Assembly (NCBI GenBank): GCA_016699245.1
Contig: CP064968.1
Coordinates: 512,317 to 576,316, forward strand
Length of the DNA stretch: 64,000 nucleotides
Source: Candidatus Kaiserbacteria bacterium
GTDB taxonomy: Bacteria; Patescibacteriota; Minisyncoccia; Phycocordibacterales; UBA918
Direction: 5' to 3'
Each line of letters begins with the position of its first letter. The stretch's first letter is position 1. Under the pieces are notes generated by a model. It was not told the DNA's origin, did no database searches, and saw only the letters and a program-made list of their open reading frames with translations. Positions 20,885 through 38,037 of this stretch are shown one piece after another. The translations under genes and the position numbers were made by a program.

Positions 20885-21250
20885 AAAGCGCCCACATAAT
20901 GGGCACTTGTGTGTACGTTTATAAGCCGAATTCTGTCTGGAAAACCAGTGTGATCATTTACCTAGGCGCATTGTTGCCAATGCGCTCATGCGGCACTCCC
21001 TGGTGAAATGTGCAGAGCACTCTAAGTAGCAAACTACTCTATTTCACTGGGCACGGCCTTGCACACAAGTACGTATTTAGCCGTTTCATCCGAACTAAAT
21101 CGGTTCGTCACTGTTCGCAACGCTATGGTTACCCACGACGGGCGTTACCCGCTACTCTTCCAGGCTTTATCCTGGTGTGTGTTCGGACTTTCCTCCCCTC
21201 GTGCTTTTGGCGAAGGGCGATCACAAACGCATACAAACTATACAACATTT
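20885..21250 (-). ncRNA. rnpB: RNase P RNA (bacterial type)
   Basis: Minus-strand reading contains GAGGAAAGTCCGAACACA (P4, consensus GAGGAAAGUCCGGGCUCC), GGTAACGCCCG (consensus GGUAACGCC), and the 3' ACAGAATTCGGCTTATAA (consensus ACAGAACCCGGCUUAU), then a terminal hairpin. Ends are approximate. Confidence 0.75.
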
Positions 21251-23827: not shown

Positions 23828-25273
23828 CTACTCGTCTACGGTGGGTATTTCTTCAAGTCCTGTATCTTCGATAATTTCCTCGGGGACTTCAGGTACAATC
23901 TGGGCAATCGGATCTTCAACATCCTCTGCAACTTCTTCTTCTAATGGCACCTCTTGAACTACTTCATCGGTAGTCACAGGAGGTATGGGCAACATCATGA
24001 GCGGTTCCACGGAGGGCAGCGCTCGAGGCAACGCTATAGGAGTAGGTGCGGTAAAGGTGAGCGATATCTTTTCACTATCATCATACCCCACACCAGTTGG
24101 ACCGGTGGCGTCCCACGCGGTGTATTCAATATCAATCACACATACCTCCCCCTCCCCAAAAGGACCGTAATTGACAGGTAGTGAAAGCGACAGGGTCCAC
24201 GGTTCATCAAATACGACATCTGAGGCACTGAGATTGACGAGTGACCCTTGATACATAAGCGGTGCACCAGCATCAACGAGTATCGACTGACAAAATAACG
24301 TATTATCACCTACAACATTCGTGTGCACACGGTACTTGATATCAGTACTTCCCTCCGCGGGTGTGACCACCGCGATAAGCGCGCCGTCTGCATCGTCAAG
24401 CTCACTTCCAATAAAGCTATATGCAGTGTCATTAACCGACAGTGTGAAATCAAGCGCTTGTGCCTGAAGTGTATTCTGCACAGAAGATTCTGAGTCGCCA
24501 AAATATGAAACCGTTGAACCTACAAACCCGAGACCGACAATACAAACGCTCGCAACCACAGAAAACGCCCCAATCGCAACGTCACCAAAAGACACAGAAT
24601 GACGCTTGGTATTTCGCACAACACTCATGGGGAGATGTCTTGCCTTGGTAACTGGCTGATACGACACTATTGGTCTTCCAATTTCTATCATACGTACTCT
24701 TTGTCGTGTGTCTGGCGGTAAATCCACACGCACGTCATGCACAACGACGCTTCCCGTATCATCTCCTTTGTCTTTTTTATTTTTTCGTATTTCTCGCCAA
24801 ATTTTCTCAATTTCACCAAAAATAATCATGAGTGCAGGTAGCACAATCAAGAAACCAAAGCCCATCGGTTGCCGTGCGAAGTCAAGAATGAATCCCACAT
24901 AGGGAACTGCAACAACCACCTCTCCCAGTATGGCGCTTAAAGGAATTTGTTCTGTATCCGCCTCTTCATTAGCATCGCCTTTGGTTGTAAACCAGGTTGT
25001 CCCATTACGTTCTTCACTACTCACAATTCTGTGTGTTGTTGGAATTTCTGCTGATGGACTTTTAAAGGTAATAACATCGTTAGTTTCATACTTTCCCGTT
25101 GGACCTATAACAACGACTGAGCCCGTAAGGATTGCAGGTTCCATTGACCCTGACTCAACAATCTTGATTTCAATTTTGGTATCGAGTGGTGAAAGTGGCG
25201 CCAAAAAGAGTCCCGCAACACCAATGAGCAGTACCGTGAAGAAACTATAGAAAATGGTGATGAAAATTTTCAT
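23828..25273 (-). CDS. sipW: SipW-type signal peptidase I (S26B) fused in one ORF to a TasA/camelysin-like domain that carries its own SipW-cognate signal
   Basis: N-terminal ~200 aa: TM, catalytic ESGSMEP, TTKGDANEEAD, second TM, as in SipW. From the internal Met at 24626-24628: n-region MSVVRNTKRHS, an h-region, then STVSYFGDSESSVQNTLQAQALDFTLS, which matches the SipW-cognate signal motif (GTxAxFSDxExSxxNxFxAGxLDL). Acidic C-terminal tail. Confidence 0.65.
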   Translation of the reverse strand: MKIFITIFYSFFTVLLIGVAGLFLAPLSPLDTKIEIKIVESGSMEPAILTGSVVVIGPTGKYETNDVITFKSPSAEIPTTHRIVSSEERNGTTWFTTKGDANEEADTEQIPLSAILGEVVVAVPYVGFILDFARQPMGFGFLIVLPALMIIFGEIEKIWREIRKNKKDKGDDTGSVVVHDVRVDLPPDTRQRVRMIEIGRPIVSYQPVTKARHLPMSVVRNTKRHSVSFGDVAIGAFSVVASVCIVGLGFVGSTVSYFGDSESSVQNTLQAQALDFTLSVNDTAYSFIGSELDDADGALIAVVTPAEGSTDIKYRVHTNVVGDNTLFCQSILVDAGAPLMYQGSLVNLSASDVVFDEPWTLSLSLPVNYGPFGEGEVCVIDIEYTAWDATGPTGVGYDDSEKISLTFTAPTPIALPRALPSVEPLMMLPIPPVTTDEVVQEVPLEEEVAEDVEDPIAQIVPEVPEEIIEDTGLEEIPTVDE

Positions 25274-25274
25274 A

Positions 25275-26501
25275 TTATCGTCGCGAAGGTCGGATCACAG
25301 GTGATGAGACGCCACTTGTTACGGGACTTACCACACTCGGTGTTTGTAGTACCGTAGGTTGCACTCCGGGTGTCGGACTTGCGGGTGTTTTGGTTTTCTT
25401 TGCGGGACGGTACTGGTTATCCACCTGGCAATAGAGGGTGCCGTCGTCGATATTCTTATTATCAATGACGATAGTTGTAGAGAACGTACTTCCCTTCTTG
25501 CATTCTCCATACCATCCTGGTCGCCAGTCACCCGCCACAAAGCCCACAGGCCCAACCTCAGTTATTGAATATGTCCCCAGAGGCAACTGTATTGTCCCAT
25601 TTGCTGAATCTACCGTGTAGGGAGTGAGTGTCACTGTTTGATTGATGCCTGCACCAACAACTTGGAATGTGAACTGCTGTGGCAAATACCCTTCTGGTAC
25701 GGGGCCACTGAATTTCTTTTCGAGGTTAAGCGTTACCGTAGGACCCACAGGTGGTGGAGGGACTGAACCATCGCATTGGTACTTTGGATAATCATCCGCA
25801 GTCACGCTACGAAGCGCAAGATCAACGGAAAAAGAATCCGTTTGTGCCCAATTGCCGAGGGCAGAGCCATCACACGTGACCTCGGCGGTTGCGGTATTAA
25901 CCGTTTGGTCACCCGCACACCACTCAATAGCAACATACTTGGTCACGTTCGCAGGAAAATAATTACCCGTAGTCGCGTCAGCGAGAATATATTTCTTGAG
26001 CACAGCAAAACCTGATTGCTCTGTAGTGGTGCCAAAGAGTGTCTTCTCCCCCACTTCATACGTATTATCACCATCGTCAAACCAACCGAAAAACTCTATT
26101 CCTTTCGAGAGTTCCCCTCCGAGTACGCCATCCACATCGAGGAGTGACTCTGGTTCATTATTTCCATTATCGTGGTCAACCAAGTTCGTAAAATCCATAC
26201 AGCCCCATGCATTTTTATCGACATGAAAACTGATGGTATTGATACCGCTATCCCCTGGCTTTATATCAGTGAAGTTAAAGAATTTATCAACACTGGGTAC
26301 GAGATTTTTTAATGCCCAGGTTTGTGATGGTTGCACGACACCATTATAGATTGCATAACTGTCTATCTTTAAATTGAGACCACCCGTAGCAAAGGTTGTA
26401 CCAATAAATCCCTTACTAAACATCATCACAAAAGCAAGGAATACCACTACCCCCACAATGAGGGCAATGCGTATTCCTGTTTTTGTATATGTGCGATTCA
26501 T
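25275..26501 (-). CDS. TasA/camelysin-like (SipW-cognate signal) secreted protein, paralog 1
   Basis: N-terminal TM then FSKGFIGTTFATGGLNLKIDS (variant SipW-cognate motif). Shares KFFNFTDIKPGDSGINTISFHVD and WCAGDQT...TCDGSALGN blocks with the other paralogs. Divergent Pro-rich C-terminus. Confidence 0.6.
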   Translation of the reverse strand: MNRTYTKTGIRIALIVGVVVFLAFVMMFSKGFIGTTFATGGLNLKIDSYAIYNGVVQPSQTWALKNLVPSVDKFFNFTDIKPGDSGINTISFHVDKNAWGCMDFTNLVDHDNGNNEPESLLDVDGVLGGELSKGIEFFGWFDDGDNTYEVGEKTLFGTTTEQSGFAVLKKYILADATTGNYFPANVTKYVAIEWCAGDQTVNTATAEVTCDGSALGNWAQTDSFSVDLALRSVTADDYPKYQCDGSVPPPPVGPTVTLNLEKKFSGPVPEGYLPQQFTFQVVGAGINQTVTLTPYTVDSANGTIQLPLGTYSITEVGPVGFVAGDWRPGWYGECKKGSTFSTTIVIDNKNIDDGTLYCQVDNQYRPAKKTKTPASPTPGVQPTVLQTPSVVSPVTSGVSSPVIRPSRR

Positions 26502-26602
26502 TTTTTTAGGTACTTATCGCTTCTTCTTTGGGCTATGGTGCTATGGGTTGCGTTCTATGGTTGAGTACTGAGGATGCGTCGAGGCATACGTATTCACCAA
26601 TA

Positions 26603-28017
26603 TTACTGACAGATAGGGCTGTAGAGTTTGATGTCGTCTATGAAACTGCCTTGTGAATTTGCGGTGCCAAGGTCGGTGAACTGAAGTCGAGTCACATTCG
26701 AAGTTGCAACAACATTCACCGTGATAACCTGCCATTCGATACCATCATTATTGTCTGCTACATTGCCGGTGTCGTGCACGACTGCTCCTCCCCACTTCAC
26801 CTCAACACGGTTTTCTGCCGATCCTGTGTTCGGACGCGCTGCAAAGGCAAACTTGATGCGGTACGGCCTTCCTATGACCGTTGGAATGTCTTGGTACATC
26901 GTGATGGATGCTGGCTCACCGGTACCACTGTCGCTTGGTCCTCCCCAGTCGCTGTCGAGCTCAGAATACTGGTCACCTTCATACGCACTGCCGAGTACGT
27001 TTTCATGTAACTCAAGTTTTGCAAGTGCGGGACGATTCTGGTTTCCAAATGTCGGGAGAACATCTCCACGCCATTCGATAGTCCAGCCATCGACAGGAGT
27101 CTGAAACACGTCCCATTTCTTTCCATTCGTCACCTCAGGAACTTCGAAACTGTAGTTCTCAAGAATATTTTCTGGTTGCTCTACAATGGTGCAGTTTTTG
27201 GTACACTCAAAGTTTGCATTATGCCTTGCCTGCACTGCTTCAAATACAATGTCGGCAGTGAGTGAGTCGGTCTGACTTTCATTACCGAGGGCAGTACCAT
27301 CGCAAGTATATCCACCGTCTTCGGGCTCGCCGATTGCCGATGTTCCACCGTTATTGTCTGCGGGAGAACTGTAATTACCTGTGGTAGTGGCGCAGGCACA
27401 ATCGTTCCAAAGCACCATGCTTTACCGATGTGTTTTGTTGTATTACCCGGAATAGGTCCTGCCTGATTTGTCCAGATGTTTTTCACGCTGTCGGCAAAGG
27501 TGAGTGCGTATGAATTGCCAACACCAAGTTGGCCAAAGTTGCCCGTATTGATAACGCTCTCACCCACCTCAAGCACGTTATCGCCATCATCAGCCCACCA
27601 GATGAAGTTGACGAGGCCGGCAAGTTCACCTTCGGTTGCACCAGTCGTTAGGTCGACGAGTGCCTCTGGCTCTGTCTGAGCATTCTCATTGTTTGAGGTG
27701 AGTGTGACATTCGCGCAGAGATATGCGTCATTCGTATCAACGTGAAGTGAGATAGTATCCTCTCCGTAGTCATCAGGCTTGAGGTCAAAAAAATTGAAAA
27801 ACTTCTCAATGGTGAGGTTGGTTGCATCCCATGAGGTAGTGCTTGTCGCAACGCCGTTGTAGTAACTTTCGTTGTCTACTTTGAGATCAATTGCCCCTGC
27901 GGTAAACACGTTTGCTACTGAGGTTTCGGTATCACTAAAGAACGCACTCGTTGCTCCGAACACCAGTCCGCCCGTTACCACCCCTATGAGTGCAAGACTG
28001 AGAATAATACGCTGCAT
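26603..28017 (-). pseudogene. TasA/camelysin-like paralog 2, disrupted by a frameshift near 27400-27420
   Basis: ORF 27181-28017 has the canonical N-terminus (GGLVFGATSAFFSDTETSVANVFTAGAIDLKVD...KFFNFFDLKPDD...KHIGKAWC) then runs into out-of-frame sequence. ORF 26603-27418 continues the family-conserved part (TCDGTALGNESQTDSLTADIVFEAVQARHNANFECT) in another frame. Confidence 0.55.
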
Positions 28018-28045
28018 AGTTTGATATATAAATAATTTATTAAAA

Positions 28046-28100
28046 TATGCTGGTTCCCGTCAGCCCGCTAAATCCCAGCCAAGCTGAGATTTAGTACGGC
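28046..28100. promoter_or_regulatory. Conserved structured intergenic motif between TasA-like paralogs (copy 1)
   Basis: tcagcccgctaaatcccagccaagctgagatttagtacggctag. It is ~90% identical to 29403-29450 and contains nested inverted repeats (cagc-cgaa-gctg; gctaaa/tttag). It lies ~60 nt upstream of the next paralog's start codon and downstream of the previous stop. Confidence 0.4.
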
Positions 28101-28109
28101 TAGTGAGGA

Positions 28110-29357
28110 CTAGTTTGGATTAGATACAACCAAGTTTGTAATAACGCACGTTGGATTAACACCTGATACAACATTCATGTTTGCAGTACCTATGTCATCA
28201 ATCTCTGCACAGCTACCACTGAACGACGCATTGTATTGAATTCCAACAGGATCATTTGAGTACACTTCAGAGACGACGTATGCTCCTGGAGTCAGGTTAG
28301 GAAATGCTACCTGATCAACCAAGATATGATCCCCGCCCGGACCAACCAAATGAAGTACGAAGTCGTTAACATCTACTCCTACAACTGAAGCCTGTGTAAA
28401 TTGAACAACTTTATCAAGAGTTACTGTTCCTGTCTCAACAACTACACGTGGTGTACATGTGAAGTTTGGATTGTTTCGAGCCTGTTCTACACGGAACGCA
28501 ATACTTGCTTCCATAGAGTCGGTCTGCACAATATTGCCCAAATTTGAACCATCGCAGGTAATTGTATTTCCCACGATAGCCTGTGTTCCTGCGCACCATG
28601 CTAGACCAATGTAGTTGGTCTGATTTGGTGCCATTGGTGTACTGTTGTTGAGTCCTGGCATAGCAAGCGGATAACTCTTTCCTCCAAGCACATCACTCGC
28701 TGGACCTGAGTCGTTTGAGAACAGAAGTGGCTCAGCTATTTCTCCTTGCCAAATATTATCTCCTTCACCAGCATCATCATTCAGTTCATTTTCATCTGAG
28801 TTCTGCCATCCAAGGGTAGCGCCCTGATCTAACCAAGCTGCGAACTTAATATTCTGCGCGAGTTCACCATCAAACATATCTGCATCTGGCTCACTTGCTT
28901 GAGTATCTAATTCAAGAACTTCTGCATCTTCTGGCTCATTCACTGTCATGTCATCATTCTTGGTGATATTTACATCAACACAAGCCCAAGCGGGGTTTGA
29001 ATCAATGTGAAGTGAAATAGTGTTTTCACCTTCATCACCAGGTTTTACATCTCGGAAATTAAAGAAAGTCTGTGCACCTAAGTCAGTTGCTTCCCAGGTA
29101 CCCGTACAAGGGAGACCAACTGGATACTCTGTACCACCCTGCCAAGTGTAATCAGTTAAATCGTTAGTAGTTAGAAGGTTTAACTGGCAAATACTACCAT
29201 TATAATGTGCTTCACTATCTACCGTTAGGTCAATTGCTCCGGCAGTAAAGACATTTCCTGTTGAGGTTTCTGTGTCAGAGAAGAATGCTCCTGTTCCTCC
29301 GACGATGAGGGCGCCCGCAAACACGAGCATCCCAACACTTGTAATAATTTTTTTCAT
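28110..29357 (-). CDS. TasA/camelysin-like (SipW-cognate signal) secreted protein, paralog 3
   Basis: MKKIITSVGMLVFAGALIVGGTGAFFSDTETSTGNVFTAGAIDLTVDSE. Conserved FFNFRDVKPGDEGENTISLHID, GLAWCAG...TCDGSNLGNIVQTDS and FRVEQARNNPNFTC blocks. Variable C-terminal beta domain. Confidence 0.7.
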   Translation of the reverse strand: MKKIITSVGMLVFAGALIVGGTGAFFSDTETSTGNVFTAGAIDLTVDSEAHYNGSICQLNLLTTNDLTDYTWQGGTEYPVGLPCTGTWEATDLGAQTFFNFRDVKPGDEGENTISLHIDSNPAWACVDVNITKNDDMTVNEPEDAEVLELDTQASEPDADMFDGELAQNIKFAAWLDQGATLGWQNSDENELNDDAGEGDNIWQGEIAEPLLFSNDSGPASDVLGGKSYPLAMPGLNNSTPMAPNQTNYIGLAWCAGTQAIVGNTITCDGSNLGNIVQTDSMEASIAFRVEQARNNPNFTCTPRVVVETGTVTLDKVVQFTQASVVGVDVNDFVLHLVGPGGDHILVDQVAFPNLTPGAYVVSEVYSNDPVGIQYNASFSGSCAEIDDIGTANMNVVSGVNPTCVITNLVVSNPN

Positions 29358-29402
29358 ACAATTATTAATTTATTTGTAATTAATACTTTTAATTTCCTGG
29401 TT

Positions 29403-29450
29403 CTTACCAGCCCGCTAAACCCCAGCCGAAGCTGAGATTTAGAACGGCTA
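29403..29450. promoter_or_regulatory. Conserved structured intergenic motif between TasA-like paralogs (copy 2)
   Basis: ccagcccgctaaaccccagccgaagctgagatttagaacggctag, near-identical to 28046-28100. Confidence 0.4.
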
Positions 29451-29457
29451 GAAATGA

Positions 29458-30963
29458 CTAGATAGCAGGCGCACCTAGGTATAGACGAGCATTATCGAAT
29501 GGCAAATCTGTAAACGGATTGTTTATAAACCATCCATATCGATTACCTCCAACTTCTGCTGGGATAGTGTCAGATGGATCACTTCGAGTCCATGAACCAA
29601 CCACTACGCCAAGACTATTGAGTACTTTCATATCTACAACCAGTACACCAGCTACGTCATGGAAGTAAGCTTGAAGTGTGTACCAACCGGTGGTGTTGAT
29701 AGCCACAGTTCCAACTCCATGTGGGTCACCAGGTGCGTTATTACTTGCATTTGCTGCCCATACACCTACTGCATTAGTACCAAGATGGAAAATAAAGTCA
29801 CGTTGATGATTTCCATCTGATCCATTACTTGCAGATGAGAAATCGAAACGCTTATCTATACCATCAGCATCTGCCATATCAAGATAGACATCTACTTCAG
29901 TTGTATAGCCACCAGCTGGAAATACTGATGAATATCCTCCCCATCGAGTAAAGATATCTCCATTAGCAAGACCATGTTTATTTCCATCAGAAGATGTAAC
30001 ACCACCTGTACCTGAATTTACGATACTGAATGTACCATCATTACTAAACCAGTACGGGTCACCTTGCTGTTCAAAACTTTCTGAAAAGACCAAATCTAAT
30101 GCTGGAGGAATATCTCCGCACGTAAAGTTAGGATTATTTCGTGCTTGTTCAACGCGGAACGCAATATTTGCAACCATAGAGTCAGTTTGCGCAATGTTGC
30201 CCATCGCACCACCGTTACAAGCAATTGTTCCGGCAACTGGCGTGGTGAGATCACCAGCACACCAAGCAAGCCCGACATAACTAGTACTTCCACCTACCAG
30301 TGCTCCGAGAATCGGAGAAGCAATTGTGTAGCTCTCACCATCGAGCACATCGCTCGCTGGACCACTACCATTTGAGAACAATGGTTGCTCATTTGCTTGC
30401 CAGATGTTATCTCCTTCACCTGGATCAGTACCTTGGAATCCTGGTGTTGCTCCGTAGTCTGCCCAAGCAAAAAATTCGATATTTTGAGCGAGCTCTCCAT
30501 CAAAGAGACTGCCGGTATTAACCGCGTCCCCTGCACCAAGTTCTGGTTCTACTGTACTCACATCATCATTAGCAACAAGTGACACATCGACACAAGCATA
30601 CGCATCATTGTTGTCTACATGAAGAGAGATAGTATTTTCTCCTTCGTCGCCTGGCTTGATGTCGGTAAAGTTAAAGAAAGTTTGCGCTCCCAAATTGGCT
30701 GGAAGCCAAGTTCCGGTACATGGTGAATTAAGGACTGGGTACTGTGGATTATCTTCAGTCTCTCCATCATCTAGCACCCATACTCCGTTTGTACAAACAG
30801 CATTGTTGTAGTGTTGTTCACTATCAACCTTTAAATCGATTGCTCCAGCGGTAAACAAGTTACCTGTTGAGGTTTCTGTATCACTAAAGAATGCGCCTGT
30901 GCCGCCAGCGACAAGTGCGCCGACGAAGACAATCATTCCCAAACTCATAATAATTTTTTTCAT
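29458..30963 (-). CDS. TasA/camelysin-like (SipW-cognate signal) secreted protein, paralog 4, with a long divergent C-terminal domain
   Basis: Likely start MKKIIMSLGMIVFVGALVAGGTGAFFSDTETSTGNLFTAGAIDLKVDSE at 30963. Conserved FFNFTDIKPGDEGENTISLHVD, GLAWCAG...ACNGGAMGNIAQTDS and FRVEQARNNPNFTC, then ~230 aa of unique C-terminus. Confidence 0.7.
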   Translation of the reverse strand: MKKIIMSLGMIVFVGALVAGGTGAFFSDTETSTGNLFTAGAIDLKVDSEQHYNNAVCTNGVWVLDDGETEDNPQYPVLNSPCTGTWLPANLGAQTFFNFTDIKPGDEGENTISLHVDNNDAYACVDVSLVANDDVSTVEPELGAGDAVNTGSLFDGELAQNIEFFAWADYGATPGFQGTDPGEGDNIWQANEQPLFSNGSGPASDVLDGESYTIASPILGALVGGSTSYVGLAWCAGDLTTPVAGTIACNGGAMGNIAQTDSMVANIAFRVEQARNNPNFTCGDIPPALDLVFSESFEQQGDPYWFSNDGTFSIVNSGTGGVTSSDGNKHGLANGDIFTRWGGYSSVFPAGGYTTEVDVYLDMADADGIDKRFDFSSASNGSDGNHQRDFIFHLGTNAVGVWAANASNNAPGDPHGVGTVAINTTGWYTLQAYFHDVAGVLVVDMKVLNSLGVVVGSWTRSDPSDTIPAEVGGNRYGWFINNPFTDLPFDNARLYLGAPAI

Positions 30964-31320
30964 GTGTATATAAATGCTATGTATAATGAATACCAATAAA
31001 CACGTTGGGGCTTCCTAAGCGCGTTCCCTACCACACGAGTATTCCCATAAAACGTCTGATAATAATATCGTATGCTGTCAAATCGAGGTATTTGAGGAAA
31101 AAAAGAAAAAATAGTACTCATTTTTGAGCAAATATGTGCATAAGTCGTAACAGCTTTGTTGAAGATACTGATTATTGTAAAATTTTGTATAGTTGATAAC
31201 GTGTGCTTAACGTGTGCTTAACAGATGTATATTCTGTTCATAGTGCTGTAGACAACACTTTTTGTAGGTAATAGAACACACAAAAAAAGAAGTTCAATAC
31301 GTGCGTATGACACTTCTTAA

Positions 31321-31959
31321 TTATTGCTTGAGTGAGGCGTATACAACGAGGTTGTGACTGTACTTCTCTTCTCCTTTGTCGTATGTTCCGGTACAGGTGA
31401 CCAAGCGAAGTGTTGGTGTGTCTGTACTGCCATAGACTAGTTCTGTGGGGAAATCATCCTGACTGTATCGTGCGAGAGAATCGACGGTAAATACAGCAAC
31501 ACTTCCGTCTTCACGTGTAATTTCTATCTCATCACCTGCTTCCAATTTTCTGAGTGGCCAAAATACTGCAGGTCCTTTGTATGAGTCCACGTGCCCCAGC
31601 ACCACTGCTGCCCCTACTTCACCCGGGGTCGGGCCGTTTTTGTACCACCCCACCTGTGTGTACGAATCGGGTACTTCAATAGTCTTATCTTCCTTCAGTC
31701 CAAGGGGCTTTTCAAATGTGGCCTCTACTTCAATTTTTGGAATAGAAATACGTGTCGGAGCCGAGCGAGAAAATGCGACTGATGTTGTTGCACTCGGTAC
31801 TTCAGACGTTGGTGCTTGTTGTGGCGACTCTTTCAAAAGAAAAAGAATTCCAAGACTACTCAGTGCTCCCACCACCATCCCCGCAACAGCAAACGCCACT
31901 ACCTTTTGGTACTGGCGGTTTGCTATACATGCACGTATGTTTTTGAATACATTAGCCAT
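31321..31959 (-). CDS. Sortase-family transpeptidase (membrane-anchored)
   Basis: N-terminal TM. Sortase His region AVVLGHVDS, conserved TLxTC catalytic motif PTLRLVTCTG, and a beta-barrel-like length of 212 aa. Overlaps by 8 nt with the upstream substrate gene. Confidence 0.6.
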   Translation of the reverse strand: MANVFKNIRACIANRQYQKVVAFAVAGMVVGALSSLGILFLLKESPQQAPTSEVPSATTSVAFSRSAPTRISIPKIEVEATFEKPLGLKEDKTIEVPDSYTQVGWYKNGPTPGEVGAAVVLGHVDSYKGPAVFWPLRKLEAGDEIEITREDGSVAVFTVDSLARYSQDDFPTELVYGSTDTPTLRLVTCTGTYDKGEEKYSHNLVVYASLKQ

Positions 31960-33232
31960 TCTTCACTTTTCGAACTGATGTTGAAAGAGGAAGGATTGCC
32001 GTGAGTATTGGGAATTGTACTGCGTGAGGAGCGGTTCCTCCAGCACCCGTGTTTGGTGCTCCAATAGGCATTATGCTCGTTGATTCACCGAGTACTTCAC
32101 CCTCTGGTTCATCATCATTATTATTGGAAGAGTGTCGTCTACTTCCGCGGCGAGGACCTGAACCATCGCTTCCACTACTTGAACTATCATCTTCTTGTAC
32201 ATTACCAAAGTTGTATGGACCGTATGTTGTGGGAAGTACCGATGCGTACGCTGTAGGAACCACAAAGTCCATTAGTTTTGCAAAGAAATGAGTCTCTTCA
32301 CTAAACGTAACCTCTCCAAGCACTTCTACCACATGCCCATTGACATTAGGAAATGTTTTACTCCATCCCTCTTCTATGATTTCGTTGATTGTCCATGTTC
32401 CCGCAGGCACATAAAAGTAATAGTATCCAGATGCATCAGTCGTTGTTGAATACGTTACACCACCGTTCGTTATTTGTACTGTCCATCCATCAAGATCGCT
32501 CTCATCATCCACTGGGTTTGGCTGTTCTACATCCCATGCATCATTTTCGTTTTCATCGTGCCATACGTATCCGAATACGAGCCATTTTGGAACGGTATTC
32601 TCTCCTCCACCATCGAGTGTGTTGGTAATCACACAGGTCACGGTCTCGTTTGCCTGAAGTGAAATTGCGGTGATAGGGCTTCCATCACTACACACCGCGC
32701 TTGTCTGTGTCCAGTTTGTCTCGAGTGTTTCAACAACATTGTATACGCCAACGGCCAATCCTGATTGAGTATGTTGTCCACCATCACTAAGTGTAAAATT
32801 CACTTCGCTCCAACTTGGATTAAAGGTGAAGACCGTCTGATTACCATCGGGAAGTGTTTGTTTTTCAATAATAATTGTTCCTTTTTCTCCTCCTCCAGTA
32901 TCACCGTTTAACGTGTTTGTAACGACACAGGTCACTGTTTCTCCCGATTGAAGTGCAATAGCGTTTATAGGGCTTCCGTCACTACATACCGCACTTGTCT
33001 GCGTCCATCCCGTTATCGGAGACTCCACAACACTATACGTTCCTGTCGCAAGCTTTGAAGAAGTGCTCTGTCCACCATCACTGAGTGTAAAATCCACGTC
33101 GCTCCAACTTGGATTAAAGGTGAAGAGAGTCTGATTACCATCTGGGATAGTCTGTTTTTGTATGATGATAGTCCCTTTGTCTGGGTCACCATTTCCGCCT
33201 CCGTTATATGTATTGGTAATGACACACGTCAC
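31952..33232 (-). CDS. Sortase-substrate surface protein, C-terminal part: three tandem Ig-like repeats and a cell-wall sorting signal. Probably one gene with 33262-34026, split by a frameshift
   Basis: Three ~95-aa tandem repeats (TCVITNT...GTIIIEKQTIPDGNQT.FTFNPSWS.V.FTLSDGGQ...GWTQTSAVCSDGSPI). C-terminus is PIGAPNTGAGG, then a hydrophobic stretch (AVQFPILTAILPLSTSV), then a basic tail RKVKNG: sorting-signal architecture. The repeat reading frame continues upstream of the annotated Met (AQLATTDHGWTQTSAVCTDGSP). Confidence 0.6.
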   Translation of the reverse strand: MTCVITNTYNGGGNGDPDKGTIIIQKQTIPDGNQTLFTFNPSWSDVDFTLSDGGQSTSSKLATGTYSVVESPITGWTQTSAVCSDGSPINAIALQSGETVTCVVTNTLNGDTGGGEKGTIIIEKQTLPDGNQTVFTFNPSWSEVNFTLSDGGQHTQSGLAVGVYNVVETLETNWTQTSAVCSDGSPITAISLQANETVTCVITNTLDGGGENTVPKWLVFGYVWHDENENDAWDVEQPNPVDDESDLDGWTVQITNGGVTYSTTTDASGYYYFYVPAGTWTINEIIEEGWSKTFPNVNGHVVEVLGEVTFSEETHFFAKLMDFVVPTAYASVLPTTYGPYNFGNVQEDDSSSSGSDGSGPRRGSRRHSSNNNDDEPEGEVLGESTSIMPIGAPNTGAGGTAPHAVQFPILTAILPLSTSVRKVKNG

Positions 33233-33261
33233 TGTTTCGTTTGCCTGAAGTGAAATAGCGT

Positions 33262-34026
33262 TTATAGGACTTCCATCAGTACAGACCGCGCTTGTCTGTG
33301 TCCACCCATGATCCGTGGTGGCAAGTTGTGCTTTTGTTCGCCATCACCACATAAGTCAACTACATCCCAGCTTGGATTAAACGTAAAATCAGTCTGATTA
33401 CCATCAGGAATAGTCTGCTTTTCTATGATGATAGTTCCTCTGTCAGGATCACCATTTTCATACTCGCAAGACCCATCATTCTCTTCAGCTGCGGGGTCGT
33501 AGTTTGTAGCTTCCGAGTCAGTACAGCCGAGTATTGGAGCAGGTTCCCCTGGCCACTGATTGTCAGCTTTGCAGGCATTACCGACGTCATCTGCGAGTGG
33601 ATAGTCGACACTGGTTTCAACCACAGTAATCTCTATCGGCCGTACAGGTCCATTCCCATCATTGGCTGTCTCGCAGCCAGGACCAGACCACTGAAGTGTC
33701 CAATCCGCGGGTACAAATCCCGCAGGACCAACTTCTGAAACGGTGTGGGTCCCCGCAGTAAGATAGACCACTTTTTCAGCAGTATCAGGAGTTAACGCAT
33801 CTAATGTAACGATACCGTAACCACTGACATTGAATTTAAATTCGTCGGCTGTATATGGATCAGGGGTGTAGTTATCACTGATGCTTTTCGTAAGCTTAAA
33901 TGGATATGTTGCTACTGTAGCCTCTGCTGTCGTAGGTTGTACAAGTTGAAACGCGACGAACACGGTAAGGAGCAGTGTTGCGAAGAGCGCAACACGCGCA
34001 AACTTAAGATTGATACGAGTAATCAT
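33262..34026 (-). CDS. Sortase-substrate surface protein, N-terminal part (signal peptide plus first repeat), frameshifted relative to 31952-33232
   Basis: Signal peptide (FARVALFATLLLTVFVAFQLVQPTTAEA). Ends with GTIIIEKQTIPDGNQTDFTFNPSW, i.e. runs into the same repeat unit before losing frame around 33300-33340 (near gatggcgaacaaaag). Confidence 0.55.
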   Translation of the reverse strand: MITRINLKFARVALFATLLLTVFVAFQLVQPTTAEATVATYPFKLTKSISDNYTPDPYTADEFKFNVSGYGIVTLDALTPDTAEKVVYLTAGTHTVSEVGPAGFVPADWTLQWSGPGCETANDGNGPVRPIEITVVETSVDYPLADDVGNACKADNQWPGEPAPILGCTDSEATNYDPAAEENDGSCEYENGDPDRGTIIIEKQTIPDGNQTDFTFNPSWDVVDLCGDGEQKHNLPPRIMGGHRQARSVLMEVL

Positions 34027-34154: not shown

Positions 34155-37100
34155 TTATCTGAAGAAACCAAAAACGTTCTTCACAAATCCGGCAACACCC
34201 CCCTGTTTTTGCTCTGCTGGCGCTTGTGCGGTTGGTTTCGGTTCAGGTGTTGGAGCAGGTGCTGGAGTCGGTGCTGGTGCTGGTGGTACGTACTTTGGCT
34301 TTGGCGCCACAGGAGCCGGTACCGGAGCGGTTATAGAAGCACCCGCAACGGCTGGGTTTGCGTTCGTTGGGAAAGCGAGTGTCAACTTCAAGATGGTAGA
34401 TGGCACCGTGAATGTGTACTCTCGACTCGTGGTAACAAACGTATCACTTTGTGCGTGGATGCGGTACGCATACGTACGACCCGGTTGAAGATTCGTTATA
34501 ATCATCACATGTTTTGGTCTCACGGTAGGGAACTTGAAACTTGCGTACGGATAGCCCATGTTGAGTGCACTTTGGTTATAGGGTGAGACTGCTTGTGCGA
34601 CACCATAGAATACCTGGCTTAATGAAGGCTTTGACGTCTCCCATGTCGCAAGTGCTGAGACGGTTCCATTTGCTCCGGGGAAGTATGCAAGAACGGAAAC
34701 GTTGCCGACTGCAAGATCAAGTCCTTTTACCTGTATGGTGTACACGGCATCTTTAATTTTCAGTGGAGCTTTCTTCGCCTCCTTCATGCCGTCCTTAAGG
34801 TATGCTTTTATACTTGCGGTATTGGTATACATGCCACTTGGCGTGTTTTCATTGTACTCAGTGGTATACGTGAGTTTAATCACTTCACCAGGGAGTATGG
34901 TATCAAGCACCCACGACTGCTCAGCCACAATTGACCCAATCGGATTTGTGAGCACATCAAATACCTCAACGTCATACGCATTGCCTCCCGTATTGGTAAC
35001 CGTAATCTTGTAGTCAACACTTTCTCCTGCGTTTACAACATCCCCTTCATCAACGTTGACAGCATCTTTCTTAATAACGAGATGCGGTGCCTTACTTGGA
35101 TCAATTGCTTTTACTTCTGCACGCTCAACTTTTGTTTTCTTTGGACCTCCGCTTTTACCACCGCTCGGTGAAGTTTGTGAAGGTGTTTGTGTAGTACTAG
35201 TATCAGTATTCCCTTCCTCACCACCTCCCACGGGGTCAGTGGTGCCCGTACCATCGTCGGTCGTTGTTCCGGTACCATTACCCGTCGTTGTGCCTGTACC
35301 ATTCCCGGTAGTTGTTCCGGTACCAGTGCCACTACCTGTCGTTGTACTTGTTGTCGAACCCGTTCCTCCTCCGCCTGAACCAGCCGGTTGTGGTTTAAAC
35401 GCGTCTTTACTCAGCATGAGCGAGTTGTCAGCGATGTTTTCATCACCTTTATCACTCGAGACAGCGGCATACGCAGTAACGGTAGTAGTGCCAAAAGGAA
35501 TATCTGAGTTTACGATTGCGGTGAGGACACCTTGCTTACTCTGGCCCGGCTCTATACTACCCAAAGACTTGCTCTGTGTAGTTCCATTTGAGGTTGTACG
35601 CGCCGACTCGAGTACTTGATCAATCACCACGTTGGTTGCAGTCGTGTTGCTATGGTTTGTCACCGTGTATGTATAGGTAAGTGTGTCACCAATACCAAGC
35701 GATGCGTCTGAAGCGGAGACAGTACCGGTAAGCGCGATGTCAGTGGCTGCAAAAGAAACATTTCCTTCAAAATCTCCAAGAATGTTGATGACCGCAAACG
35801 TCCAGTTCGTACCGATGATGTTGGTGTTTGCAATGTTCATCACGTTTGCACTTGCAAAAGCGTTTCCGGTGTTGATGCTTCCAATCAATGCATCAATGTC
35901 GTTCTCCCCCGTGATGGCATTGATAGAAAGATTGTTTTCAAGCGCAACACGGTTGTTGTTATCAAAATTTGCGGTATATGCATCGAGGTCTTTCGTACTG
36001 AGAAATTCGGATGGAGTAATCTCAGCATCTGCATTGTATATAACAATTCCTTGCGGTGTCCATTCCCACAGGAGACCCTCAGGGAGACCAACGACATCTC
36101 CACTCCACACACCATGCACACGGATAAGCATGTACATTGAATCACCACCGTAGGTGTTTTCATTAATCTTATTGAGCACGTTCGATTCAGACTCTGCCCT
36201 TCCCGTGGTGATATTTGATGCAAAAGATGTTGTTGACTCATTCAGTCCCGTTTCAGCATAAGCATCGATATTATTATCCACCACGGCATCATTCAGGTTG
36301 TTCACACGCACATTGAAGTCTTCATATTTCCCCTGTCGGCTTTCTTCAGAAACAGCTATGCCGTTTGCGCGTCCAAAAAATGCGTCAAAAAGTTCTCCTG
36401 TGGGGAGCACGAGGTCACCCTCGAGGTCGCCAATAGCGTTATAGGTAAAAAGTCTATAGTTGGAGTCAATGATGTTGCTGTTAACGACGTTGATGACGTT
36501 TGCTGCCGCGTAGGCGTCACCCGTGGTAATCTCTGCGCTTGAAATTCCCACTGCTTCATTGTAACCAGTCACTGCTTCCACAACGGCGTTGTTGGTGATG
36601 GTTGCATTATTCATCTGCGATACGTTGTACACAACATCTTCAGCAATACATGAAAGCAATGAACAGGTGTTTGAAAGTGCCTCTTCCTGTGCTGGATCGG
36701 GGAAAAATGAACTCGTGAGGTCGAGTGATTGACCTTCATCGAGGATTTTGTTCGCGAGATAAATAAAGCCATTCGAGTTGATGACGTTGGTATTGACCAC
36801 GTTTGCGATATTAAACGCTGCAATCGAATCTCCCGTGTTCACTTCCGCAGTACTTCGTCCTCGAGCATAGTTGTCACCAGAGGTGGAGCGAGTTAAACCA
36901 TCGTTCGTTATAATTGCGTCATTGGTGCCTGTGGCAACAAAGGTATAGATATCAAAATCATTTGGAACAGGACCGATGAGTTCACTGCGAATATCGTTTG
37001 AGTTTGCGTCAGTGGAAAGCTCTCCCTGTGCAGTCGCGATTCCCGTCTCAATAAGCGCAAAAGTCTCTCTTTGTGTTATATCACCCGTAGTTTCTTCTTC

Positions 37101-37535
37101 TTGAGGAACACCAACATCCCCAAGTAGTCCGTCGGAAATAATGTCAACAGGCGTTATTTCATCATCGGGCGTTGCCCCTGCGGTCGCATCAGCTCCGTCT
37201 TGACCTTGCGGTGTCGTTTCAGGGGTTTCTTCTGATGGTGATTCTACTGCAACTGGTGATGCTTCAGATGATGGGGTGTTTTCTGTAATCACCGGGTCAG
37301 GAATTATTTCTGGAGGTGTCGTTTCGGTATCAGGTACTCCTCCTGCTGTGCCGTCATTCCCTTCTTGTCCATCTACACCTTGGGATGGAATCTCTATAGT
37401 AGTGGGTTCTACAGGTGGTAGCGTGTCCTCAGCAAAAACAGCGAGCGGAATGAGCGACGAGAGTATTGAGACGATAATTATCGTCGCCAAAAAGCGATTT
37501 AATTTCTCCGCTACTTTAAAATAGTATGCTGACAT
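34155..37535 (-). CDS. Giant (1126 aa) cell-surface protein with beta-helix-like N-x-N repeats, DUF11-like domains, a Gly/Thr low-complexity linker and a Pro-rich C-terminus
   Basis: N-terminal signal anchor. ~5 repeats of the type N.A.I.N...TG.N.A......TG.A.AANV.NVVN.N.I.SN. Two DUF11-like segments (TYTYTVTNHSNTTATNVVIDQVL; DYKITVTNTGGNAYDVEVFDVL). TGSGTGTGTTTGNGTG linker. PAPAPTPAPAPTPEPKP tail. Confidence 0.55.
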   Translation of the reverse strand: MSAYYFKVAEKLNRFLATIIIVSILSSLIPLAVFAEDTLPPVEPTTIEIPSQGVDGQEGNDGTAGGVPDTETTPPEIIPDPVITENTPSSEASPVAVESPSEETPETTPQGQDGADATAGATPDDEITPVDIISDGLLGDVGVPQEEETTGDITQRETFALIETGIATAQGELSTDANSNDIRSELIGPVPNDFDIYTFVATGTNDAIITNDGLTRSTSGDNYARGRSTAEVNTGDSIAAFNIANVVNTNVINSNGFIYLANKILDEGQSLDLTSSFFPDPAQEEALSNTCSLLSCIAEDVVYNVSQMNNATITNNAVVEAVTGYNEAVGISSAEITTGDAYAAANVINVVNSNIIDSNYRLFTYNAIGDLEGDLVLPTGELFDAFFGRANGIAVSEESRQGKYEDFNVRVNNLNDAVVDNNIDAYAETGLNESTTSFASNITTGRAESESNVLNKINENTYGGDSMYMLIRVHGVWSGDVVGLPEGLLWEWTPQGIVIYNADAEITPSEFLSTKDLDAYTANFDNNNRVALENNLSINAITGENDIDALIGSINTGNAFASANVMNIANTNIIGTNWTFAVINILGDFEGNVSFAATDIALTGTVSASDASLGIGDTLTYTYTVTNHSNTTATNVVIDQVLESARTTSNGTTQSKSLGSIEPGQSKQGVLTAIVNSDIPFGTTTVTAYAAVSSDKGDENIADNSLMLSKDAFKPQPAGSGGGGTGSTTSTTTGSGTGTGTTTGNGTGTTTGNGTGTTTDDGTGTTDPVGGGEEGNTDTSTTQTPSQTSPSGGKSGGPKKTKVERAEVKAIDPSKAPHLVIKKDAVNVDEGDVVNAGESVDYKITVTNTGGNAYDVEVFDVLTNPIGSIVAEQSWVLDTILPGEVIKLTYTTEYNENTPSGMYTNTASIKAYLKDGMKEAKKAPLKIKDAVYTIQVKGLDLAVGNVSVLAYFPGANGTVSALATWETSKPSLSQVFYGVAQAVSPYNQSALNMGYPYASFKFPTVRPKHVMIITNLQPGRTYAYRIHAQSDTFVTTSREYTFTVPSTILKLTLAFPTNANPAVAGASITAPVPAPVAPKPKYVPPAPAPTPAPAPTPEPKPTAQAPAEQKQGGVAGFVKNVFGFFR

Positions 37536-38037
37536 AGGTAATTAACATTAACTGCAATGAAAAAAGTGCCTCCGAAAACTTCGAAAATACACTTTGAGAT
37601 GCATCTTCACTCGTCGTATTTTGGAAGTTTTCAAGAACCAAAGTTTCGGTAGTCGTGGTTGTGTGTGTTGCAAAAACAAAAGACGAGTCAGCGGGTGAAG
37701 ATTGAGTTTTTTGAATATCTAAAACTGGTACTTCATCCACAGTAGATTCGATGATACTTGAAGCATGGTTTATATTGTTTTTGGTAACAATACTGCCTGA
37801 TGTTCCTGGTGCACCATCTGTCCCAGGTTTTCCATCTTCACCATCTTGGCCACTTTGGCCATCTTCACCATCTTGACCCCTTTGGTGTATCCCGCCAGTG
37901 TTCTCACTTGTATACACGACGTTTGTAATGAGGTGTGCATCATCTGCACATACACGTTCTGTCGCAACTGTACTAAAAACAGCCACAATTGCAAGCACGA
38001 CAAATATTTGTTTGTAATTTCTCACTGATTGCATCAT
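37516..38037 (-). CDS. Small secreted collagen-like (G-x-x) repeat protein
   Basis: Signal peptide (IFVVLAIVAVFSTVATERVCA). Motif DDAHLITNVVYTSENTGGIHQRG is followed by the G-x-x tract GQDGEDGQSGQDGEDGKPGTDGAPGTSG. The N-terminal motif is shared with the neighbouring genes. Confidence 0.5.
   Translation of the reverse strand: MMQSVRNYKQIFVVLAIVAVFSTVATERVCADDAHLITNVVYTSENTGGIHQRGQDGEDGQSGQDGEDGKPGTDGAPGTSGSIVTKNNINHASSIIESTVDEVPVLDIQKTQSSPADSSFVFATHTTTTTETLVLENFQNTTSEDASQSVFSKFSEALFSLQLMLITYVSILF

What the first reader, a model, noticed from the sequence alone, without database searches (positions are those of the whole stretch)
23828..34026. SipW / TasA-like / sortase cell-surface fibre locus in a reduced-genome bacterium
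Within ~10 kb, all on the minus strand, sit three gene sets. First, a SipW-type signal peptidase I. Second, five tandem genes (including the fusion module) whose products carry the SipW-cognate signal motif (GGTGAFFSDTETSxxNxFTAGAIDL) and the KPGD block shared by TasA and camelysin. Third, a sortase immediately downstream of a repeat-rich substrate with a PNTG-like sorting signal. This resembles the Bacillus tapA-sipW-tasA biofilm-fibre module, but it is expanded into a paralog array and coupled to sortase-anchored adhesins. The conserved N-termini and divergent C-termini suggest a variable surface-fibre or adhesin repertoire, which may matter for an episymbiotic lifestyle. To my knowledge this specific combination has not been described as a system.
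Basis: partly seen in the sequence, partly recalled or inferred. Interest (0 to 1): 0.8.

Follow-up and report, generated by a model that had tools for sequence, protein, structure and literature searches.

The report
TasA-like surface fibre operon, Kaiserbacteria
A tiny-genome (CPR) bacterium carries a widely conserved gene cluster that most likely builds a TasA-type surface fibre, unusual in that its dedicated signal peptidase is fused to one of its own substrates; the neighbouring sortase appears to be an unrelated module.

Summary

- **Core operon.** On the minus strand lie three canonical SipW-cognate TasA-like genes (g5, g4 and a frameshifted g3). Next comes a divergent paralog (g2) that lacks the first eight residues (FFSDTETS) of the motif. 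Last is an archaeal-type signal peptidase I fused to an internal signal peptide, a cognate motif, an Ig-like domain and an acidic tail.
- **Conservation.** This layout recurs in Paceibacteria-type CPR genomes. TasA-like genes lie directly upstream of SipW in 77 of 80 related loci. SipW is fused to the C-module in 42 loci and followed by a separate gene for it in 36.
- **Sortase.** The class F sortase and its APNTG substrate are a genuine pair, but they accompany the module in only 7 of 80 loci. No TasA-like protein has a sorting signal.
- **Inferred mechanism.** A donor-strand fibre with a TapA-like initiator (the fused C-module), variable display subunits, and g2 as terminal or anchor subunit.

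Verdict: a new variant of a known kind, of moderate interest.

The parts
24764..25273 (-). g1 N-terminal part (aa 1-170): archaeal/ER-type signal peptidase I (SipW-type) with two TM helices. Catalytic Ser43 (SGSMEP), His81 (TTHR), Asp100 (KGDAN) and Asp106.
24437..24589 (-). g1 internal signal-peptide-like segment. TM3 (aa 229-250) is followed by the SipW-cognate, donor-strand-like motif GSTVSYFGDSESSVQNTLQAQALDF (aa 254-279).
   Evidence: The model shows a helix at 229-250. The motif is conserved, with N267 invariant. TIGR04088 scores 16.4 bits, below cut-off. HHalign to the paralog motif gives probability 94.7%, E 5.8e-8. In 36 related loci the same element is the N-terminus of a separate gene.
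23828..24466 (-). g1 C-module: an Ig-like beta-sandwich (aa 270-412) with invariant Cys328 and Cys378, then an acidic disordered tail (aa 413-481) and the stop codon. Proposed TapA-like initiator.
25275..26501 (-). g2 (408 aa): a TasA-like N-domain with KPGD. It has a long N-terminal hydrophobic helix and 'G.TFAT' in place of the FFSDTETS segment, plus a C-terminal SpaA-like domain. Proposed terminal or anchor subunit.
   Evidence: 32% identity to g4 over 306 aa, with an 8-residue gap exactly at FFSDTETS. It forms its own positional subfamily directly upstream of SipW in 54 of 77 loci. Its C-domain is 34% identical to the N-domain of the sortase substrate.
26603..28017 (-). g3: a canonical TasA-like subunit (about 472 aa if repaired) with a choice-of-anchor C / CBM6-like C-domain. 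It is broken by one frameshift near 27395-27410.
   Evidence: TIGR04088 24.2 bits and PF12389 23.0 bits. TIGR04362 scores 49.6 bits, below cut-off. The intact 477-aa orthologue in L007 aligns in two frames.
28110..29357 (-). g4 (415 aa): a canonical TasA-like subunit. Signal peptide, FFSDTETSTGNVFTAGAIDL motif (29226-29285), a jelly-roll-like N-domain with six conserved Cys, and a CnaB/SpaA-like C-domain.
29458..30996 (-). g5 (512 aa; probably starts at the internal MKKII, giving 501 aa as annotated): a canonical TasA-like subunit with a rare, unassigned 210-aa C-domain. Motif at 30832-30891.
   Evidence: TIGR04088 24.8 bits and PF12389 33.8 bits. 59% identity to the g4 N-domain. The C-domain is found in only 2 of 120 homologues.
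31321..31959 (-). Class F sortase, a neighbouring independent module. His and Cys are present, but the canonical Arg is replaced by Asn (YSHNLVV).
   Evidence: NF033748 189.7 bits against cut-off 166; PF04203 85.8 bits. Alignments.
31952..34026 (-). Sortase substrate (about 690 aa if repaired). Signal peptide, a SpaA-like domain, three tandem repeats of about 98 aa, an SdrD/SpaA-like domain, and a C-terminal GAPNTG sorting signal (32045-32059) with a hydrophobic stretch and RKVK. One frameshift at an A4 run near 33335.

Best explanation
Genes g5 to g1 (23828-30996) form a conserved Paceibacteria operon for a SipW-processed cell-surface fibre of the TasA superfamily. The steps below are marked as shown or inferred.

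1. **Cleavage (shown in part).** The archaeal-type signal peptidase in g1 is inferred to cleave the canonical subunits g3, g4 and g5 after GGTGA. This would expose FFSDTETSxxNxFTAGAIDL, the counterpart of the TasA N-terminal donor strand.
2. **Polymerisation (inferred).** These subunits polymerise by donor-strand exchange and display different C-terminal domains: SpaA/CnaB-like, choice-of-anchor C-like, or unknown.
3. **Initiation (inferred).** The C-terminal half of g1 follows an internal signal peptide and carries the same motif, but on a different and complete Ig-like domain with an acidic tail. I infer that the peptidase releases it and that it acts like TapA, donating the first strand.
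4. **Termination or anchoring (inferred).** g2 has the acceptor domain but lacks the donor-strand segment and keeps a long hydrophobic N-terminus. I infer that it is the terminal subunit, possibly the membrane anchor.
5. **Sortase (shown as separable).** The sortase and its APNTG substrate upstream form a separate wall-anchored adhesin module that happens to lie next door in this lineage.
For: **Family assignments**
- g1 matches TIGR02228 above cut-off. g3, g4 and g5 match TIGR04088 and PF12389 above cut-off.
- The Ser/His/Asp residues of the peptidase are conserved.

**Cleavage site and donor strand**
- The mature TasA N-terminus, AFNDIKS..., was verified against 8aur. It aligns with FSDTETS... 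(HHalign).
- TasA residues 28-38 are the donor strand (PMC9674648).
- The motif is invariant for about 20 residues beyond the cleavage site in 63 homologues. That is more conservation than peptidase recognition alone would be expected to need (my inference).

**Fold**

**Synteny**
- TasA-like genes lie directly upstream of SipW on the same strand in 77 of 80 loci.
- The g2-type gene occupies position -1 in 54 of 77 loci.
- Canonical motifs are present at positions -2 to -4 in 63 of 70, 46 of 49 and 8 of 10 cases.

**The g1 fusion**
- SipW is fused to the C-module in 42 loci. In 36 it is followed by a separate gene, and in most of these (27 by my pattern search) that gene opens with a basic region, a TM helix and the motif.
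- The C-module shares only the motif with the subunits.
- It resembles TapA in plan: donor-like N-terminus, a complete Ig fold with a Cys pair, and an acidic disordered tail.

**g2**
- Its gap relative to g4 falls exactly at FFSDTETS.
- Deleting residues 28-38 (the donor strand) of TasA was tested as a mutant in B. subtilis pellicles.
Against: - No polymer has been observed for any CPR member of this family.
- Sequence similarity of the mature domain to Bacillus TasA is not significant: hmmscan finds nothing and HHalign gives probability 5.7% for the KPGD block.
- Whether g1 cleaves itself, and whether g2 is cleaved by another peptidase, is unknown. A plausible site exists just before TFAT in some orthologues.
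- g3 is frameshifted in this genome.
Confidence: 0.6

Rival explanations
1. These are SipW-dependent secreted or surface proteins that do not polymerise. The conserved N-terminal motif would be only a recognition element for a dedicated peptidase. The paralogs would then be monomeric adhesins or binding proteins with different C-terminal domains.
For: - No significant sequence similarity of the mature domain to TasA.
- Many family members carry adhesin-type C-domains such as SpaA_2 and VWA.
- The AF2 monomer model is confident without a partner strand.
Against: - About 20 residues after the cleavage site are invariant.
- The same motif sits on an unrelated Ig-like domain, as in the TapA/TasA pair.
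- A specialised paralog lacks exactly the donor segment.
- The fold matches the TasA, AbpA and CanX fibre subunits.
Confidence: 0.22
2. One reading: one integrated system in which the sortase anchors or polymerises the TasA-like fibre, together with the repeat-rich adhesin.
For: - The substrate-sortase pair lies directly upstream of the array here and in L006 and L014.
- A sortase within 10 kb in 7 of 80 loci exceeds a naive 2% expectation (P about 1e-3, not corrected for shared ancestry).
- g2 and the substrate share a SpaA-like domain at 34% identity.
Against: - No sortase was found in 73 of 80 loci, and its position and side vary where present.
- No TasA-like paralog has a sorting signal.
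- The sortase start overlaps the stop of its own substrate.
- A 325-bp gap separates the sortase from g5.
- In C. perfringens the sortase gene next to sipW-bsaA is dispensable.
- B. cereus TasA/CalY assembly is described as sortase-independent.
Confidence: 0.08
3. The paralogs are camelysin-type (Peptidase_M73) secreted metalloproteases.
For: PF12389 is named 'Camelysin metallo-endopeptidase', and three paralogs pass its gathering score.
Against: - The hits cover only the signal and donor-strand region, profile positions 4-51.
- No paralog contains an HExxH motif.
- The fold is a beta-sandwich like the TasA fibre subunits.
Confidence: 0.03

Closest known systems
Bacillus subtilis tapA-sipW-tasA biofilm fibre operon (TasA donor-strand fibres, TapA initiator, SipW peptidase)
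   Same: - A dedicated archaeal-type signal peptidase is encoded among its substrates.
- The substrates share an N-terminal motif spanning the cleavage site and the donor strand (AFNDI... against FFSDTE...).
- A second substrate shares only the motif and has a complete Ig-like domain with a Cys pair and an acidic disordered tail, as TapA does.
   Different: - There are 2-4 subunit paralogs instead of one, most with extra C-terminal display domains.
- The N-domain is larger (about 260 aa) and has six conserved Cys.
- An extra paralog class (g2-type) lacks the donor segment.
- The initiator-like module lies downstream of SipW and is translationally fused to it in about half of the loci.
- Mature-domain sequence similarity to TasA is not significant.
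- There is no TIGR04087 (YqxM/TapA) hit.
- The host is a CPR bacterium.
Clostridium perfringens sipW-bsaA locus with adjacent srtB
   Same: A SipW-dependent matrix protein locus with a sortase gene next door. That sortase was shown not to be needed for polymerisation (PMC7395162).
   Different: The gene content differs (bsaB and bsaC), there is no peptidase-substrate fusion, and the host is a Firmicute.
Archaeal TasA-superfamily filaments (AbpA bundling pili, CanX cannulae)
   Different: In Pyrobaculum no dedicated signal peptidase is encoded nearby (PMC9245690). The subunits are smaller and lack display domains.
Pam pili of CPR bacteria (Candidatus Mycosynbacter; bioRxiv 10.64898/2026.03.03.709456)
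   Same: CPR-specific donor-strand pili built from Ig-like subunits and encoded in a conserved operon.
   Different: - The pilins are different and the operon has chaperone-like PamC and PamD.
- It occurs mainly in Saccharimonadia and Microgenomatia.
- The paper mentions neither TasA nor SipW.
- The present system is found in Paceibacteria-type genomes.
Sortase-assembled Gram-positive pili and class F sortase-substrate pairs
   Same: A class F sortase with a translationally coupled substrate. The substrate has SpaA/CnaB-like domains and a C-terminal sorting signal.
   Different: - There is a single substrate with no pilin motif.
- The sorting motif is APNTG, or degenerate in relatives.
- The canonical catalytic Arg is replaced by Asn in this clade.

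Membership tests
Archaeal/ER-type signal peptidase I (TIGR02228; SipW-type) | HMM score above the curated cut-off | tested here: met
Archaeal/ER-type signal peptidase I (TIGR02228; SipW-type) | Catalytic Ser, His and Asp rather than Ser/Lys | tested here: met
   Ser43 (SGSMEP) is at least 90% conserved. His81, Asp100 and Asp106 are invariant in 59 homologues.
Bacillus SipW equivalog (NF046067) | Equivalog-level HMM score | tested here: not met
   101.8 bits against a cut-off of 190. It is of SipW type but not an orthologue-level match.
SipW-cognate signal peptide proteins (TIGR04088) | HMM score above cut-off at the N-terminus | tested here: met
   g3 scores 24.2, g4 27.8 and g5 24.8 against a cut-off of 19. 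The g1 C-module scores 16.4, below cut-off. g2 has no hit.
TasA/camelysin family (PF12389) | Pfam gathering score | tested here: met
   g3 scores 23.0, g4 28.7 and g5 33.8 against 22.5. Only profile positions 4-51 are matched.
TasA/camelysin family (PF12389) | Sequence homology of the mature globular domain | tested here: not met
   No Pfam hit once the motif is removed. HHalign against a 59-sequence Bacillaceae TasA alignment aligns only the KPGD block (21 columns, P 0.0067, probability 5.7%).
TasA/camelysin family (PF12389) | TasA-like jelly-roll or beta-sandwich fold | tested here: inconclusive
TasA/camelysin family (PF12389) | Polymerisation by N-terminal donor-strand exchange | not testable with these tools
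   It needs multimer prediction or experiment.
TapA/YqxM (TIGR04087) | HMM match or fold match to TapA | tested here: not met
Class F sortase (NF033748) | HMM score above cut-off | tested here: met
   189.7 bits against 166.
Class F sortase (NF033748) | Canonical His-Cys-Arg catalytic triad | tested here: not met
   His (LGHVDS) and Cys (LVTC) are present. The position aligned to Arg ('SHRLIV' in PDB 9m6n, 'EKRLIV' in L067) is Asn in the window and in five CPR relatives.
Sortase substrate | C-terminal LPXTG-like motif, hydrophobic segment and basic tail | tested here: met
   GAPNTGAGG...AVQFPILTAILPL...RKVKNG. Relatives have APNAG, APHTG, AAAAG or APGAG.

The most novel reading that the evidence does not exclude
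Paceibacteria-type CPR bacteria would build a polar TasA-type pilus that grows from the base, tip first. Its dedicated signal peptidase is translationally fused to the initiator subunit and releases it by self-cleavage. A donor-strand-less paralog (g2) terminates the fibre and anchors it in the membrane. Interchangeable C-terminal display domains on the shaft subunits mediate attachment to hosts or surfaces. This would be a self-contained pilus assembly pathway needing no chaperone, usher or sortase.
Probability: 0.3. Interest if true: 0.75.

Novelty: new variant of a known kind. Interest (0 to 1): 0.55.

Why it matters
CPR bacteria are thought to depend on contact with other cells, and their surface appendages are only beginning to be identified (Pam pili, 2026). 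This operon has relatives in 415 species-representative genomes. It could be a main surface fibre of the large Paceibacteria group.

It also extends the TasA, TapA and SipW paradigm in three ways. It adds a peptidase-substrate fusion, which implies intramolecular or in-trans self-processing. It adds a dedicated terminal subunit class, which has no described counterpart in Bacillus. And it offers modular display domains on the subunits. Each of these gives a concrete target for cryo-EM or cryo-ET, metaproteomics and heterologous reconstitution.

Tried and rejected
- **Sortase as part of the system.** Rejected after the synteny survey (7 of 80 loci, variable position) and the C. perfringens precedent.
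- **g1 C-module as a fifth TasA-like paralog.** Rejected: only the 26-residue motif is shared (HHalign 94.7% with the motif, 0.6% without it).
- **Sequence-level link of the mature domains to TasA.**
  - A PDB profile search found nothing.
  - Pfam on motif-less domains found nothing.
  - HHalign was weak.
- **Metalloprotease reading.** No HExxH motif in any paralog.
- **Pam pili as the same system.** Rejected: the paper has no TasA or SipW content and describes a different distribution.
- **Promoter and terminator scan.** No more sites than in shuffled sequence, so uninformative.
- **Rfam and tRNA scans.** Nothing found inside the locus.
- **Other TasA-like copies in the window.** None outside the locus.
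- **Literature searches.** Searches for camelysin, PF12389, TIGR04088 or SipW together with CPR terms found only the phyletic remark in Wang et al. 2022.
Full report
**Origin and gene map**

The 415-aa protein encoded at 28110-29357 is identical to a protein of Candidatus Kaiserbacteria bacterium (locus tag IPH92_02625), on a contig of 1,054,716 bp. The 'reduced-genome bacterium' is therefore a CPR/Patescibacteria member.

Read 5' to 3' on the minus strand, the region holds the following genes:

| Gene | Coordinates | Size and note |
|---|---|---|
| DUF11 surface protein | 34155-37535 | 1126 aa |
| Sortase substrate | 33262-34026 plus 31952-33232 | repeat-rich, one frameshift |
| Sortase | 31321-31959 | start overlaps the substrate stop |
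| (gap) | | 325 bp |
| g5 | 29458-30996 | 512 aa |
| g4 | 28110-29357 | 415 aa |
| g3 | 27181-28017 plus 26603-27418 | one frameshift |
| g2 | 25275-26501 | 408 aa |
| g1 | 23828-25273 | 481 aa |

A tRNA-Ser gene follows on the other strand.

**Checking the observation**

- g1 matches archaeal-type signal peptidase I (TIGR02228, 100.5 bits, cut-off 51.85). It stays below the Bacillus SipW equivalog cut-off.
- g3, g4 and g5 pass TIGR04088 and PF12389. The Pfam match covers only profile positions 4-51.
- The sortase is class F (189.7 bits against 166).
- The substrate has SpaA-like domains. It ends in GAPNTGAGG, a hydrophobic segment and RKVKNG.
- g4 and g5 are 59% identical over the first 303 residues and unrelated afterwards.

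Three corrections are needed.

1. g2 has the KPGD domain (32% identity to g4). It lacks exactly the eight residues FFSDTETS and hits no model.
2. The g1 C-terminal half has the motif but a different globular domain.
3. g3 and the substrate are single genes, each broken by one frameshift. Intact orthologues align across two frames. These are the only two frameshift-type ORF overlaps in the 64-kb window.

**How TasA-like are the paralogs?**

- The B. subtilis mature TasA sequence I used is identical to chain 8aur_A and begins AFNDIKS.
- HHalign of the CPR family against 59 Bacillaceae TasA, CalY and camelysin sequences aligns the motif (FSDTETSxxNxFTAGAIDL against FNDxE-xxNxFAAGTLDL; E 1.3e-4).
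- With the motif removed, only the block around KPGD aligns, at the equivalent position and weakly (P 0.0067).
- Motif-less domains hit no Pfam family and no PDB sequence.
- The C-terminal 110 residues match CnaB/SpaA-type domains.
- Foldseek gives probability 0.98 but TM 0.45 for 8aur.

I conclude that these are distant members of the TasA superfamily. Membership is firm for the N-terminal motif and moderate for the fold.

**The peptidase fusion**

A search with g1 returned more than 120 clusters of 440-600 aa covering most of the query, all from CPR sources.

The alignment and the model show this order of elements:

- TM1.
- The S26 catalytic domain, with Ser43, His81, Asp100 and Asp106 conserved.
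- TM2.
- A basic linker.
- TM3 (aa 229-250).
- The motif GSTVSYFNDxExSxxNxLxAxxLDF.
- A confidently predicted beta-sandwich (aa 270-410) with two invariant Cys.
- An acidic disordered tail.

HHalign shows that the C-module shares the 26-residue motif with the subunits (probability 94.7%) and nothing else (0.6%).

**Synteny**

A scan of one genome per species with the g1 profile found 415 relatives. The 80 best loci are all CPR by record title: Kaiser-, Nomura-, Zambryski-, Taylor-, Yonath- and Adlerbacteria, and Paceibacterota or Minisyncoccia. Some third-party assemblies are titled 'Saccharibacteria'; I did not check those labels.

I searched the window proteins against stop-to-stop ORFs of these loci. 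The results are:

- **TasA-like genes upstream of SipW.** They lie directly upstream, on the same strand, in 77 of 80 loci. There are three copies in 37 loci, two in 20, four in 10 and one in 10.
- **Position -1.** The gene next to SipW is the g2-type in 54 of 77 loci. Its consensus is a TM helix, RGxEPGxTFAT, then GLELKIDS.
- **Positions -2 to -4.** The canonical motif is present in 63 of 70, 46 of 49 and 8 of 10 cases.
- **Fusion or separate gene.** SipW is fused to a long C-terminal extension in 42 loci. In 36 it is a protein of about 175-220 aa followed by a separate gene. In most of these (27 by my pattern search) that gene's product begins with a basic region, a hydrophobic helix and the same YFxDxExS motif.

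TM3 plus the motif in g1 is therefore a former N-terminal signal peptide. g1 is a fusion of a peptidase with its downstream substrate.

**The sortase**

- A sortase was found in only 7 loci, upstream or downstream at different distances, and always beside its own substrate.
- This exceeds a naive 2% expectation (P about 1e-3). That figure ignores shared ancestry, and the same arrangement as here occurs only in L006 and L014.
- No TasA-like paralog carries a sorting signal.
- In C. perfringens, a sortase gene next to sipW-bsaA was deleted without effect on BsaA polymers (PMC7395162).
- B. cereus TasA/CalY assembly is described as sortase-independent (PMC13082335).

I treat the sortase pair as a neighbouring, independent module.

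**Mechanism**

Established for Bacillus:

- SipW cleaves TasA and TapA.
- TasA residues 28-38 insert as a donor strand into the next subunit.
- TapA shares only the N-terminal residues (AFHDI). It has a complete Ig domain with a disulfide and an acidic flexible tail, and it initiates filaments by donating its strand (PMC9674648 and PMC10151520).

Shown here: the same three kinds of element exist in the CPR operon, with the same relationships between them.

Inferred:

- g3, g4 and g5 are shaft subunits that display variable domains.
- The g1 C-module is the initiator, released by the peptidase it is fused to.
- g2 can accept a strand but cannot donate one, and it retains a long hydrophobic N-terminus. 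It would therefore end the fibre and may anchor it.

The weakest steps are self-cleavage of g1 and the fate of the g2 N-terminus.

**Novelty**

- Wang et al. 2022 listed Patescibacteria among phyla with PF12389 hits.
- NCBI and JGI already give these proteins generic names.
- The recently described CPR Pam pili are a different system.
- I found no description of the conserved operon order, the g2-type subunit or the peptidase-substrate fusion.

This is a new variant of a known kind. It is of moderate interest as it stands, and of higher interest if the polar-assembly model holds.

Noticed in passing
window 31321-31959 (sortase); L006, L010, L014, L018, L024: In this CPR clade of class F sortases the position of the canonical catalytic Arg is Asn ('YSHNL[IV]V'). 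A solved homologue has 'SHRLIV' and the more distant L067 sortase has 'EKRLIV'. His and Cys are retained.
   Followed up: partly
window 32045-32059; C-termini of the substrates in L002, L006, L014, L018, L024, L067: The sorting motif of the paired substrates is GAPNTG here and in L018. It degenerates to APNAG, APHTG, APGAG or AAAAG in relatives that carry the Asn-type sortase. The Arg-type sortase of L067 is paired with LPNTG.
   Followed up: partly
window about 27395-27410 and about 33335: The only two frameshift-type ORF disruptions in the 64-kb window both fall in surface-protein genes of this cluster: g3, and the sortase substrate at an AAAA run. They could be assembly errors, strain heterogeneity or real inactivation.
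   Followed up: partly
window 25275-26501 (aa 269-378) and 33262-34026 (aa 55-164): The C-terminal domain of g2 and the N-terminal domain of the sortase substrate are 34% identical (E 2e-13). This points to domain shuffling between the two surface-protein modules.
   Followed up: partly
window 29458-30096 (g5 aa 300-512): The 210-aa C-terminal domain of g5 has no Pfam or NCBIfam hit. It recurs in only 2 of the 120 closest family members and in none of the 80 related loci.
   Followed up: partly
proteins P0027, P0116, P0064, P0081 (relatives of g4): Some family members carry a von Willebrand A domain (PF00092/PF13519) or PF22842 after the TasA-like N-domain. About 19 of 67 have no C-terminal extension at all.
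   Followed up: no
window 34155-37535: A 1126-aa secreted protein directly upstream of the substrate-sortase pair. It has DUF11/DUF7507 repeats, a Gly/Thr-rich low-complexity stretch and a purple-acid-phosphatase-N-like (FN3-type) domain. Homologues lie near the SipW locus in 13 of 80 genomes, at variable positions.
   Followed up: no
window 37516-38037: A small ORF (173 aa) with a short collagen-like Gly-X-Y repeat (PF01391, below the gathering score). It overlaps the start of the 1126-aa gene.
   Followed up: no
window 20906-21235: A bacterial RNase P RNA (class A, 116 bits) on the minus strand. The window also holds tRNA-Phe, tRNA-Arg and tRNA-Ser genes.
   Followed up: no
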